Shown: piece after piece, positions 20,052 through 20,742 of the stretch
How the letters are laid out: the number at the start of each line of letters is the position of its first letter
Numbering within the stretch: the first letter of the stretch is position 1
Assembly: GCA_001794755.1 (NCBI GenBank)
Contig: MGKT01000008.1
Location: 11,491-75,490 of the forward strand
DNA: 64,000 nt
Direction of reading: 5' to 3'
From: Candidatus Yanofskybacteria bacterium RIFCSPLOWO2_02_FULL_44_18
GTDB lineage: Bacteria; Patescibacteriota; Minisyncoccia; 2-02-FULL-40-12; GWA2-44-9
Position numbers and translations under genes: made by a program
The notes under the pieces: generated by a model
The model's database searches: none
What the model was told of the DNA's origin: nothing
What the model saw: the letters and a program-made list of their open reading frames with translations, nothing else

Positions 20052-20068
20052 AGGCGGATATTTTTGTT
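20041..20068 (+). terminator. Probable rplU terminator
   Basis: TATCCACC-TAAA-GGCGGATA imperfect hairpin followed by TTTTTG. Confidence 0.4.
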
Positions 20069-20069
20069 A

Positions 20070-20098
20070 TTGACAAGGCAGCAGTAATCATGTATAAT
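20070..20098 (+). promoter_or_regulatory. Perfect consensus sigma70 promoter TTGACA-N17-TATAAT
   Basis: TTGACA at 20070-20075, a 17-nt spacer, then TATAAT at 20093-20098. Drives the GC-rich cassette. Confidence 0.6.
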
Positions 20099-20188
20099 AG
20101 ATGTACAGTTCCTTGAGATGCGAAGAACGCCTCTCTCGGGCAGAAGAACTGCCCGGGCATTTTGCCATGGAACTTTCTGGGAGAGGTT

Positions 20189-20599
20189 ATGGAACCTCAA
20201 GTTTATTGGCCGTATGTTGCCACGGGGTTGCTCGTGGCGACGCTGTCCGCCATCGTCGTTGCGATAACGGTATGCTTCAGGGCTTCCCGTTATCATCGAG
20301 AATGGAAGTCGGAGAGCAGGTTCGCGGCGATGTTTGTGAATCAGGCGCAGGTCAGCTTGGTTCTCAAGCAGTTGGCTGTCAGATTCGATGATCTCTGCAA
20401 GAAAGAGATCCGACTCCAGCAGGACGATGTCGTCCTCGAGGTGAGACTCGAGGAGATGGAAGAGGATATCCGGAGGTTCAAAGCTCGCGTGATCGCGACC
20501 AAAAATGCATTCTGGGAGGCGCGCAGCGCCGCCCAGAACCATGGATTCACAGTCTTGTATTGGCAGGACTACGTCAATCTTTCTGAACCCAAGAACTGA
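20189..20599 (+). CDS. GC-rich hypothetical single-pass membrane protein (136 aa); possible horizontally acquired gene
   Basis: GGGAGAGG SD before the ATG at 20189 (alternative TTG at 20162). TM VYWPYVATGLLVATLSAIVVAITVCF, then a charged helical domain. Local GC is ~60%, and many overlapping ORFs appear on both strands, as expected for GC-rich sequence. Confidence 0.5.
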   Translation: MEPQVYWPYVATGLLVATLSAIVVAITVCFRASRYHREWKSESRFAAMFVNQAQVSLVLKQLAVRFDDLCKKEIRLQQDDVVLEVRLEEMEEDIRRFKARVIATKNAFWEARSAAQNHGFTVLYWQDYVNLSEPKN

Positions 20600-20602
20600 A
20601 CG

Positions 20603-20669
20603 CAAGGGGGCGGCCCTCCAATGCCGCCCCCTTGCCCCGCCACCTCACCATGAGGTGGTTTTTATTTTT
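20603..20669 (+). terminator. Tandem rho-independent terminators
   Basis: CAAGGGGGCGGC-cctccaat-GCCGCCCCCTTG (12-bp GC stem), then CCACCTCA-ccat-GAGGTGG followed by TTTTTATTTTT. Confidence 0.7.
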
Positions 20670-20742
20670 CAATTATGCACTTTTTTGCATTGACCTATGA
20701 TTGTAATCAAGTAAGAATATTTTATGTTCCTTGAGGTGTTTA

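What the first reader, a model, noticed from the sequence alone, without database searches (positions are those of the whole stretch)
20052..20700. Self-contained GC-rich (~60%) expression cassette inserted after rplU
A perfect TTGACA-N17-TATAAT promoter sits about 40 nt after rplU. It is followed by a GGGAGAGG RBS, an ORF for a 136-aa single-pass membrane protein (one TM plus a charged helical domain), and two tandem strong terminators. All of this lies in a 600-bp patch ~15-20 points higher in GC than either flank. Because of the GC bias the patch also yields long spurious ORFs on the opposite strand. It looks like a recently acquired, strongly expressed, autonomous gene. Candidate roles are toxin, exclusion or immunity protein, or phage moron. 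An assembly chimera or construct contamination is an alternative.
Basis: seen in the sequence. Interest (0 to 1): 0.6.

Follow-up and report, generated by a model that had tools for sequence, protein, structure and literature searches.

The report
Acquired membrane-protein gene with conserved RNA leader
The GC-rich patch after rplU is a real, horizontally acquired one-gene unit from a rare protein family of ultra-small (CPR) bacteria, and every family member carries the same, previously undescribed twin-hairpin RNA leader, a likely new regulatory element.

Summary
The window is from Candidatus Yanofskybacteria (CPR). The features exist, with two corrections. GC is 55.5% over 20100-20650, not about 60%, though this is the richest 550-bp stretch of the 64 kb. 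Only the second 3' hairpin is a canonical terminator. At least ten independent assemblies span both junctions, so it is not a chimera, and there is no plasmid or phage match. In four related genomes rplU is followed directly by convergent recR. The 136-aa gene and the next ORF (20743-21183) are therefore lineage-specific insertions, and GC3 of 0.69 against 0.43-0.56 for host genes fits recent transfer. The protein is not an orphan: full HMMER found 12 distant relatives, with one to three N-terminal TM helices and a conserved ~90-aa helical domain, and no Pfam, NCBIfam, PADLOC or PDB match. The main result is that all 17 family loci with upstream DNA carry a conserved 5' leader of two adjacent hairpins, each a G-C-closed AAGAN pentaloop. 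Pairing is 88% against 35-55% in slid controls, 9 of 16 pairs show compensatory changes, and Rfam has no match. Five of nine contexts adjoin ribosomal-protein or rRNA genes. Toxin, immunity or moron roles have no support. The function of protein and leader remains inferred.

The parts
19746..20051 (+). rplU (ribosomal protein L21). This is the conserved left neighbour, not part of the inserted unit.
   Evidence: Pfam PF00829, E 3e-35. 59-70% identical to rplU of L011-L013.
20030..20071 (.). rplU terminator: a 20-nt-arm palindrome with A and T tracts. Its T tail runs into the -35 box. Homology with relative L011 ends just after ATTGACAA (about 20077), which marks the left junction of the insertion.
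   Evidence: Inverted repeat I1. Fold -21.8 kcal/mol, z -7.1. Side-by-side comparison with L011.
20070..20098 (+). Consensus sigma-70-type promoter TTGACA-N17-TATAAT.
   Evidence: 12/12 match. One of three perfect sites in the window. Every family member has a TTGAC(A/G/T) -35-like hexamer ahead of its leader, with more variable -10-like hexamers.
20107..20174 (+). Structured 5' leader core. Helix P1 (20107-20112 with 20169-20174) encloses hairpin 1, hairpin 2 and a small third hairpin (20156-20166).
   Evidence: MFE fold -39.7 kcal/mol, z -4.1, 0 of 200 shuffles as stable. The same four-way layout folds in L169 and L166. P1 changes G-C to A-U in L169.
20116..20134 (+). Leader hairpin 1: stem 20116-20122 with 20128-20134, pentaloop AAGAA 20123-20127 closed by G-C.
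   Evidence: Alignments A4 and A6. 85% of cells are paired, and 4 of 7 pairs show double changes in the 17-sequence set. Also predicted by RNAalifold.
20135..20157 (+). Leader hairpin 2: stem 20135-20143 with 20149-20157, pentaloop AAGAA 20144-20148 closed by G-C.
   Evidence: 90% of cells are paired, and 5 of 9 pairs show compensatory double changes. L097 and L098 differ only by G-C to U.G at one pair of this stem.
20179..20198 (+). Shine-Dalgarno GGGAGAGG (20179-20186) and start codon. They lie partly inside a small hairpin, GAGGUU-AUGG-AACCUC (20183-20198).
   Evidence: Sequence. Folds and scan.
20189..20599 (+). CDS of a 136-aa bitopic membrane protein: TM at about residues 9-30, then a ~100-aa helical domain predicted to be cytoplasmic. 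It is a member of an unnamed family known so far only from CPR (Paceibacterota) bacteria.
   Evidence: - GC1/2/3 of 0.56/0.36/0.69.
- 12 relatives at E 7e-10 to 9e-4.
- Invariant F49, A63, K105, F108, W109 and A115 in the 12-sequence alignment.
- The N-terminus M-x-x-Q-V/I-x-x-W is shared with P0002 and P0003.
- AF2 with a 9-sequence MSA gives pLDDT 73.7, all helical.
- Hydropathy and flank charges.
20602..20635 (+). Very stable 13-bp GC-rich hairpin right after the stop codon, with no U tract. It is probably a 3' stabiliser or barrier rather than a terminator on its own.
   Evidence: Fold. Not listed as terminator-like.
20639..20669 (+). Canonical intrinsic terminator: 9-bp stem, 3-nt loop, tail TTTTTATTTTT.
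   Evidence: Terminator scan. Fold.
20048..20605 (-). 185-aa antisense ORF, judged spurious.
   Evidence: No Pfam, PHROG, PADLOC or NCBIfam hit. The sense frame is the one conserved across the family. Its third positions coincide with sense first positions.
20690..21183 (+). Second lineage-specific unit: a weak promoter-like site (20690-20718), the repeat GTTCCTTGAGGTG (20726-20738) and a 146-aa ORF (20743-21183) that abuts the recR stop codon.
   Evidence: Absent from relatives by tblastn. No family hits. 13-nt direct repeat with 20108-20120.

Best explanation
The patch is a horizontally acquired, self-contained, monocistronic gene unit. It belongs to a rare family known so far only from CPR (Paceibacterota) bacteria.

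How it most likely works:
1. A consensus sigma-70 promoter (20070-20098) starts an mRNA whose first ~85 nt fold into a conserved leader.
2. In the leader, helix P1 encloses two adjacent hairpins. Each presents a purine-rich pentaloop (AAGAA) closed by a G-C pair.
3. A Shine-Dalgarno and AUG follow, partly buried in a small hairpin.
4. The product is a 136-aa membrane-anchored protein. Topology is predicted as N-terminus out, one TM helix, helical-hairpin domain in the cytoplasm.
5. A very stable hairpin and then a canonical terminator close the unit.

Shown:
- The gene is real and conserved.
- The unit is absent at this site in related genomes and is compositionally foreign.
- The twin-hairpin leader travels with the gene in all 17 family loci examined.
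- Its stems covary while its loops stay constant.

Inferred:
- The two identical loops are a binding platform for a trans-acting factor, most likely a dimeric or two-site RNA-binding protein. This factor would set translation or stability of the message.
- The unit spreads by recombination next to highly conserved translation-apparatus genes.
- The protein's biochemical role is unknown. A membrane-tethered scaffold linked to ribosome or translation status is my guess from its gene neighbourhoods.
For: Gene reality and family:
- phmmer over 1.84 billion representatives found 12 relatives at E 6.6e-10 to 8.9e-4.
- The alignment shows invariant residues and N-terminal TM helices.
- GC3 exceeds GC1, which exceeds GC2.
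- AF2 gives pLDDT 73.7.

Insertion:
- In L011, L012, L013 and L074 the order is tRNA-Glu / rplU / recR(-) / dnaB(-), with 30-315 nt between rplU and recR and no homologue of either ORF.
- GC3 is 0.69 against 0.43-0.56 for host genes, and this is the top-ranked GC window.

Not an artefact:
- 21 contigs from independent assemblies carry it, and the ten read are 99-100% identical across it.

Leader:
- The motif lies upstream of every family member, including those retrieved by protein alone: L091-L093, L097, L158-L160, L162, L163, L166 and L169.
- On alignment A4 (14 sequences), 86% of cells pair against 25-52% in slid controls, and 0 of 500 shuffles reach the observed covariation score.
- RNAalifold independently gives the same two hairpins.
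- On alignment A6 (17 sequences), 88% of cells pair, 9 of 16 pairs have double changes, and the covariation score is 0.347 against 0.158 for shuffles.
- Covariance model R1 gives 50.4, 30.6 and 24.0 bits to three loci not used to build it. 54 chance matches to the same primary-sequence pattern score at most 17.7 bits.
- G[AAGAN]C hairpins occur nowhere else in the window or in the family loci.
- The distance from the -10 box to hairpin 1 varies (about 9-23 nt), so the element is positioned in the transcript rather than relative to the promoter.
- L097 and L098 are identical over 686 nt except for both partners of one hairpin-2 pair.

Context:
- Five of nine independent contexts touch r-protein or rRNA genes.
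Against: - No expression data exist. The transcription start, RNA structure and any binding partner are all unobserved.
- Hairpin 1 is degenerate in L159 and L162, so the two sites are not equally constrained.
- The sample is small (17 leaders). Five were found with a DNA pattern that fixed the loop and part of the hairpin-1 sequence, so conservation at those positions is partly by construction. The stem-2 arms and the 5' arm of stem 1 were not constrained by the pattern.
- The related-sequence shuffle control can be exceeded without any structure, as the tool itself warns.
- No donor lineage was identified. The closest homologues are only 39-42% identical and are not GC-rich.
- The enrichment next to translation genes rests on nine contexts and my own rough background estimate.
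Confidence: 0.6

Rival explanations
1. The hairpins are ligand-independent 5' stabilisers or folding elements. They would protect the mRNA from 5'-end-dependent decay or tune ribosome access, and no trans-acting factor reads the loops.
For: In most family members the predicted transcript begins a few nucleotides before hairpin 1. This is the position where 5'-terminal stem-loops stabilise bacterial mRNAs (established knowledge, e.g. the ompA and aprE leaders). The stems covary, as expected for any structural element.
Against: A pure stabiliser does not need a specific loop. Yet A-A-G-A-N closed by G-C is kept in both hairpins across proteins only 25-40% identical, while the stems change freely. 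L166 even adds a third hairpin with the same loop.
Confidence: 0.2
2. The conserved element acts at the DNA level. It would be either a direct-repeat operator (GAAGAAC-N14-GAAGAAC) for a repressor, or single-strand hairpins that serve as recombination or transposition ends moving the cassette.
For: - The unit is patchily distributed and sits in a different place in every lineage.
- Short repeats flank some copies: a 13-nt direct repeat in the window, 16-40-nt direct repeats in L093 and 28-nt inverted repeats in L166.
- The two GAAGAAC copies are 21 nt apart, about two helical turns.
Against: - No transposase, integrase or integron-type partner adjoins any of the nine contexts. In the window, the island recombinases are 11 kb away, and an island-free variant keeps the cassette.
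- Both hairpins are at the 5' side only, between promoter and SD. The 3' hairpins are ordinary and not conserved.
- Protein operators conserve sequence rather than pairing, whereas here pairing is conserved by compensatory change.
- The flanking repeats are mostly the terminator-T-tract-plus-TTGACA design that is common in these genomes.
Confidence: 0.1
3. The leader is a small-molecule or ion riboswitch.
For: It is a conserved structured 5' leader before a membrane-protein gene. In one subgroup there is a four-way junction with the conserved junction sequence CCUUGA.
Against: - The conserved nucleotides lie in hairpin loops, not in junctions or internal loops that could form a pocket.
- The larger subgroup lacks P1 and the junction altogether.
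- No conserved terminator/antiterminator or SD-sequestering alternative was found across members.
- There is no Rfam match even at E up to 1.
Confidence: 0.05
4. One reading: a toxin, exclusion or immunity protein, or a phage moron.
For: It is a small membrane protein with its own strong promoter and terminator, of foreign composition. It lies 370 nt from the end of a 12.4-kb integrative island. The stems of the leader differ between near-identical strains, which could fit an arms race.
Against: - No PADLOC hit, only a weak PHROG hit of unknown function (E 8e-4), no viral-contig relative and no phage DNA match.
- No partner gene is conserved next to it.
- Homologues sit among ribosomal-protein, tRNA, rRNA and replication genes rather than in prophages or islands.
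- The island-free variant L006 still has the cassette.
Confidence: 0.05

Closest known systems
Loop-specific protein-binding hairpins in bacterial and phage leaders (lambda N-boxB; multi-hairpin CsrA/RsmE sites with GGA loops)
   Same: Short 5-9-bp stems whose sequence is free to vary, presenting a conserved purine-rich 5-nt loop. The hairpins occur in tandem near the 5' end of a transcript. The lambda boxB loops are GAAGA and GAAAA (from my own knowledge).
   Different: Here the loop is A-A-G-A-N closed by G-C. It therefore lacks the G...A ends needed for the GNRA-like boxB fold. There is no boxA, no N-like or CsrA gene was identified, and the GGA motif is absent from the loops. This is a working analogy only, not membership.
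Ribosomal-protein autoregulatory leaders (e.g. the L10, L21, L13 and L19 leaders in Rfam)
   Same: A structured 5' leader found in the neighbourhood of r-protein genes. It presumably binds a protein and acts on translation.
   Different: The regulated gene encodes a membrane protein, not an r-protein. No Rfam r-leader model matches. No rRNA mimicry was found in the partial rRNAs available.
Phage 'morons' and small horizontally acquired orphan genes
   Same: An autonomous promoter-gene-terminator unit of deviating GC, inserted between conserved genes.
   Different: It is not inside a prophage. It has a conserved family and a conserved leader across several CPR lineages. The homologues are mostly not compositionally deviant in their hosts.
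5'-terminal stabiliser stem-loops (ompA, aprE and cryIIIA STAB-SD types)
   Same: Hairpins at or near the 5' end of the mRNA, upstream of the SD.
   Different: Those elements do not depend on a conserved loop sequence repeated in two hairpins.

Membership tests
Any curated protein family (Pfam-A, NCBIfam, PADLOC, PHROGs, PDB sequences) | Score above the family's curated cut-off or a significant E-value | tested here: not met
   - Pfam: nothing for the window protein at E up to 0.01. The best of 12 members is DivIVA at 14.9 bits against a cut-off of 28.
- NCBIfam best 16 bits against a cut-off of 323.
- PADLOC: none.
- PHROG 12015 at E 8e-4, function unknown.
- PDB profile search best E 0.045.
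- Foldseek against PDB best E 0.93.
Unnamed CPR small-membrane-protein family (defined here: P0001-P0009 and P0011-P0020, excluding P0010) | N-terminal TM helix or helices plus a ~90-aa C-terminal domain with F-x-x-Q...L-A...C...L-Q...K-x-x-F-W-x-A...G-F | tested here: met
   phmmer E 6.6e-10 to 8.9e-4. Invariant F49, A63, K105, F108, W109 and A115. G119 and F120 are also invariant in A5.
Twin AAGAN-loop leader (defined here, model R1) | Two adjacent hairpins, each with a G-C-closed A-A-G-A-N pentaloop, between a TTGACA promoter and the SD of a family gene | tested here: met
   Window 20114-20158 scores 58.2 bits, E 3.5e-11.
Rfam families (4227 models) | Score at or above the gathering threshold | tested here: not met
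   Only two tRNAs in the 64 kb. At E up to 1 nothing lies in 20100-20190, and the 3' hairpins give sub-threshold sRNA matches of 25 bits against cut-offs of 50-440. Family loci give only rRNA and tRNA.
Intrinsic (Rho-independent) terminator | GC-rich stem-loop immediately followed by a U tract | tested here: met
   20639-20659 plus TTTTTATTTTT meets it. The first hairpin, 20602-20635, lacks the U tract and does not meet it.
Sigma-70-type promoter | -35 and -10 hexamers with 16-18-nt spacing; a transcription start 5-9 nt downstream | tested here: inconclusive
   Hexamers and spacing are perfect. The transcription start is not testable with these tools.
Phage moron | Located inside a prophage or phage genome between phage genes | tested here: not met
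   The neighbours are rplU and recR/dnaB. There is no phage DNA match and no viral-contig relative.
Integron gene cassette | Promoterless ORF with a 3' attC site, in an array next to an IntI integrase | tested here: not met
   It has its own promoter. The conserved hairpins are 5' of the ORF. There is no array. No integrase is adjacent in the contexts whose gene calls carry Pfam hits; L169's neighbours have no hit.
Type I toxin-antitoxin | Hydrophobic toxin, usually under 60 aa, with an overlapping or adjacent antisense RNA | tested here: inconclusive
   The protein is 136 aa with a conserved ~100-aa soluble domain. No antisense promoter was examined experimentally. An antisense RNA is not testable here.
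lambda-type boxB | Pentaloop G-N-R-N-A folding as a GNRA-like tetraloop; bound by an arginine-rich N peptide; associated boxA | tested here: not met
   The loops are A-A-G-A-N, with no G at loop position 1. An N-like protein is not testable here.

The most novel reading that the evidence does not exclude
The twin AAGAN-loop leader is a new class of CPR-specific regulatory RNA. It would couple expression of a membrane-anchored protein to the state of the translation apparatus, with a ribosomal or ribosome-associated protein as its ligand. The leader-plus-gene unit would be a small mobile module that spreads between Paceibacterota by recombination next to r-protein, rRNA and tRNA genes. The fast, pairing-preserving turnover of its stems between near-identical strains would reflect selection on recognition specificity.
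Probability: 0.2. Interest if true: 0.75.

Novelty: new variant of a known kind. Interest (0 to 1): 0.55.

Why it matters
CPR bacteria have tiny genomes and almost no experimentally studied gene regulation.

- **New RNA element.** A conserved, covarying leader RNA tied to one protein family gives a concrete, testable cis-regulatory element for this radiation. It is not in Rfam.
- **New protein family.** It also defines a new small membrane-protein family with no Pfam or PDB relative.
- **Gene spread.** The repeated placement of the unit beside ribosomal-protein, rRNA and tRNA genes, and its absence at the same site in sister genomes, offers a tractable case for how accessory genes move in organisms with few classical mobile elements.
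- **For annotation.** A GC-rich patch in a MAG can be real acquired DNA rather than a mis-assembly.

Tried and rejected
- **Structured non-coding RNA gene in place of a protein gene.** Rejected. Rfam gives nothing. The sense frame shows coding GC1/2/3 and has conserved homologues.
- **Antisense 185-aa ORF as the real gene.** Rejected, with no hits in four libraries.
- **Word-indexed protein search.** It found only the gene's own cluster, which would have suggested an orphan. Full HMMER overturned this.
- **The search for related loci with the family alignment.** It failed because no stretch was conserved enough. I replaced it with a DNA-pattern scan of the metagenomes. Of 59 hits, only 5 were real and the rest were chance matches inside coding regions.
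- **Viral collections.** No relative of either ORF was found, and there was one chance pattern hit.
- **Plasmid and phage DNA searches.** No match.
- **Structure.** AF2 on the single sequence was poor, pLDDT 49. The MSA model reached pLDDT 73.7, but Foldseek against PDB gave only generic helical hairpins with E at least 0.9. The afdb50 library was unavailable.
- **Leader peptide.** The ATG at 20118 opens a 49-aa frame, but it has no counterpart in other leaders. Rejected.
- **Attenuator.** The run GGCAUUUUGCC follows hairpin 2 only in the window, L163 and L169, not in the other members. Rejected as a family mechanism.
- **Anti-SD pairing.** CCUCUCU with GGGAGAGG fits the window and L163 but not the larger subgroup. 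Left open.
- **rRNA mimicry.** No G[AAGAN]C hairpin occurs in the partial 16S, 23S and 5S of L106.
- **Literature.** Searches for the loop or motif returned nothing relevant.
- **Inverted repeat around orf146.** The 16-nt repeat (20735-20750 / 21173-21188) is about what chance gives in 1.3 kb by my estimate. Not pursued.
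Full report
**Source and overview.** The exact 136-aa protein is recorded as a hypothetical protein of Candidatus Yanofskybacteria bacterium RIFCSPLOWO2_12_FULL. The window is 100% identical to contig MGKC01000020.1 of GCA_001794595.1. This is a CPR (Parcubacteria/Paceibacterota) genome from groundwater. Overall GC is 43.1%. A 12-kb stretch at 36-37% lies just upstream of the region of interest.

**Checking the observation.**
- rplU is at 19746-20051 (Pfam L21, E 3e-35). 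It ends in a 20-nt-arm palindromic terminator at 20030-20071.
- A 12/12 TTGACA-N17-TATAAT site is at 20070-20098. Two other perfect sites exist in the 64 kb, so consensus promoters are native to this genome.
- GGGAGAGG lies at 20179-20186 and an ATG ORF runs 20189-20599 (136 aa).
This is lower than the stated ~60%, but it is still the richest 550-bp window of 6345 (mean 43.1, sd 3.9).
- After the stop codon come a 13-bp hairpin without a U tract (20602-20635) and a canonical terminator (20639-20659 plus TTTTTATTTTT).
- The 185-aa antisense ORF exists but matches nothing.
- I rate the observation as partly confirmed.

**Not an artefact.** 21 contigs from independent assemblies (JGI, ENA, NCBI, Logan) encode the identical protein. 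Ten were read and align to the window at 99-100% identity. Nine cover the rplU-cassette junction and five cover the whole unit with both flanks. There is no plasmid or phage DNA match.

**It is an insertion.**
- I fetched loci around rplU homologues from one genome per GTDB species. The four CPR relatives are L011 and L013 (both Yanofskybacteria) and L012 and L074 (both Paceibacterota).
- In these relatives rplU is followed by convergent recR and dnaB, with tRNA-Glu upstream in L011 and L013. The rplU-recR gap is about 315, 265, 200 and 30 nt respectively.
- tblastn found neither the 136-aa ORF nor the next ORF (20743-21183) in any of them.
- Homology between the window and L011 runs through the rplU terminator and ATTGACAA and then stops.
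- The 1.13 kb between rplU and recR is therefore lineage-specific.
- The 136-aa gene has GC3 of 0.69, against 0.43-0.56 for 17 host genes (0.43 for the adjacent lineage-specific orf146) and 0.29-0.40 for the island genes. This supports recent transfer from a GC-richer donor.
- The same spot is variable in the relatives. L011 has a 59-aa Cys-rich ORF there (56.7% GC in a 46% locus). L012 has a GC-rich stretch that folds well, z -3.75.

**The protein.**
- The word-indexed search returned only the gene's own cluster.
- phmmer over 1.84 billion representatives found 12 relatives, E 6.6e-10 to 8.9e-4 and 28-42% identity.
- They share one to three N-terminal hydrophobic helices and a ~90-aa C-terminal domain. 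F49, A63, K105, F108, W109 and A115 are invariant.
- Named sources are Yanofskybacteria, Kaiserbacteria and Minisyncoccia.
- There is no significant match in Pfam, NCBIfam, PADLOC or PDB sequences. There is one weak PHROG hit of unknown function.
- AF2 with a 9-sequence alignment gives pLDDT 73.7 and helices 9-48, 52-79, 87-117 and 125-132. Foldseek against PDB finds only generic helical hairpins (best E 0.93).
- Hydropathy peaks at residues 10-28. The flank charges (-1 on the N side, five K/R just after the helix) predict an N-out, C-in topology (this is inference).

**The leader, the main new result.**
- Upstream of the homologues I saw the same sequence as in the window: GAAGAACGCCTCTCT followed by a hairpin with loop AAGAN.
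- A degenerate pattern scan of the metagenome collection gave 59 hits. Five are followed by a family ORF and the rest lie in unrelated coding regions.
- Loci retrieved by protein alone also carry it: L091-L093, L097, L158-L160, L162, L163, L166 and L169. L159 and L162 have a degenerate first hairpin.
- The element is two adjacent hairpins. Each has a G-C closing pair and a pentaloop A-A-G-A-(A/U/G).
- On 14 sequences, 86% of cells pair against 25-52% when partners are slid, and no shuffle out of 500 reaches the covariation score. Helix 2 has compensatory double changes at 5 of 7 pairs. RNAalifold predicts the same hairpins.
- A covariance model built from these 14 finds the three loci left out at 50.4, 30.6 and 24.0 bits. 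54 chance matches to the same primary pattern score at most 17.7 bits. Nothing else in the window or in the relatives is hit.
- On 17 sequences aligned to the model, 88% of cells pair and 9 of 16 pairs have double changes, 4 in helix 1 and 5 in helix 2.
- Hairpins with this loop occur nowhere else in the sequences examined.
- In the window the leader folds as P1 (20107-20112 / 20169-20174) enclosing hairpin 1 (20116-20134), hairpin 2 (20135-20157) and a small third hairpin. The SD and AUG lie in a further small hairpin. The fold is -39.7 kcal/mol, z -4.1.
- L169 and L166 fold the same way, and P1 shows a G-C to A-U change in L169. A larger subgroup (L091 type) lacks P1.
- Rfam has no match even at E up to 1, and the literature searches found nothing.

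**Why RNA rather than DNA.**
- Pairing is conserved through compensatory change.
- The distance from the -10 box varies from about 9 to 23 nt.
- The element always lies between the promoter and the SD.
- Two strain pairs are telling. L097 and L098 are identical over 686 nt except for both partners of one hairpin-2 pair, G-C to U.G.
- L091 and L092 have identical coding sequences and 3 differences in the ~600 nt of the upstream gene. They have about 22 differences in the 140 nt of promoter and leader.
- I cannot explain this local hypervariability.

**Context.** The nine independent contexts are:
- after rplU (window);
- between rplB and rplJ (L093);
- between rpsP-khpA and trmD (L163);
- convergent with rpsI (L166);
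- 275 nt upstream of 16S rRNA (L106);
- before a tRNA (L091, L096);
- dus / dnaX (L158);
- before hisS (L160);
- unknown neighbours (L169).

Five of nine touch r-protein or rRNA genes. With my rough estimate that about 12% of intergenic slots in such a genome are that close, the binomial tail is about 2e-3. This is inference, not a tool result. No recombinase is adjacent in any context. Flanking repeats exist in some copies, but most reflect the terminator-T-tract-TTGACA design of these genomes.

**Interpretation.** My best explanation is a horizontally acquired member of a CPR-specific gene-plus-leader module. Its twin loops are read by a trans-acting factor, probably a protein, that controls translation or stability. 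The structure and its linkage to the family are shown. The factor, the regulatory logic and the protein's role are inferred.

**Novelty.** The kind of element is known (a structured 5' leader, an acquired small gene). The RNA family and the protein family are undescribed in the libraries searched.

Noticed in passing
window 7253-19684: A 12.4-kb low-GC (36-37%) integrative island lies at the 3' end of tRNA-Glu (7180-7252). It carries a large serine recombinase (7198-8838, -), a tyrosine integrase (9005-10129, -), a DNA methylase plus ResIII helicase (12484-16409), a TnsA-like ORF (16396-16746) and a DUF3800 protein (18034-19014). Contig L006 joins 7252 directly to 19685, so an island-free variant exists and it still carries the cassette.
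   Followed up: partly
window 20690-21183: A 146-aa ORF (20743-21183) is also absent from the relatives and matches no family. It abuts the recR stop codon with no terminator between them. Its promoter-like region and the 13-mer GTTCCTTGAGGTG (20726) repeat the cassette's promoter region and GTTCCTTGAGATG (20108), 618 nt apart. Removing one repeat unit would put this ORF behind the perfect promoter.
   Followed up: partly
L091 5849-5990 vs L092; L097 vs L098: Near-identical strains differ almost only in the promoter and leader. L091 and L092 have about 22 differences in 140 nt, against 0 in the 495-nt CDS and 3 in the upstream gene. The only 2 differences between L097 and L098 are the two partners of one hairpin-2 base pair.
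   Followed up: partly
L011 5754-5933 and 6373-6552: In a related Yanofskybacteria genome, rplU is flanked by two other small GC-rich ORFs (51.7% and 56.7% GC in a 46% locus): a 59-aa TM protein and a 59-aa Cys-rich protein. The second sits behind a TTGACA at the same position as in the window.
   Followed up: no
L012 ~991-1160: A GC-rich ~170-nt stretch between rplU and recR has a long closing helix (MFE -91 kcal/mol over the 206 nt folded, z -3.75). It has no Rfam hit at gathering score and is possibly an unannotated small RNA.
   Followed up: no
L166 5726-5840 and 6505-6758: Four copies of a ~28-nt repeat form long inverted pairs on both sides of the family gene: 5735-5753/5822-5840 at 100%, 6505-6532/6729-6756 at 93%, and 5726-5753/6731-6758 at 82%. 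A third G[AAGAA]C hairpin lies at 5956-5972, outside P1.
   Followed up: no
L093 5493-11733: In a Minisyncoccia genome the S10 operon is split between rplB and rpsS by about 6 kb. The insert holds the family gene, rplJ-rplL, a mechanosensitive-channel gene and several unknown ORFs.
   Followed up: no
L106 10619-11777: A 61%-GC family member sits 275 nt upstream of a 16S rRNA gene in a 56%-GC contig, next to a ParD-like antitoxin ORF. This shows that GC-rich hosts of the family exist.
   Followed up: no
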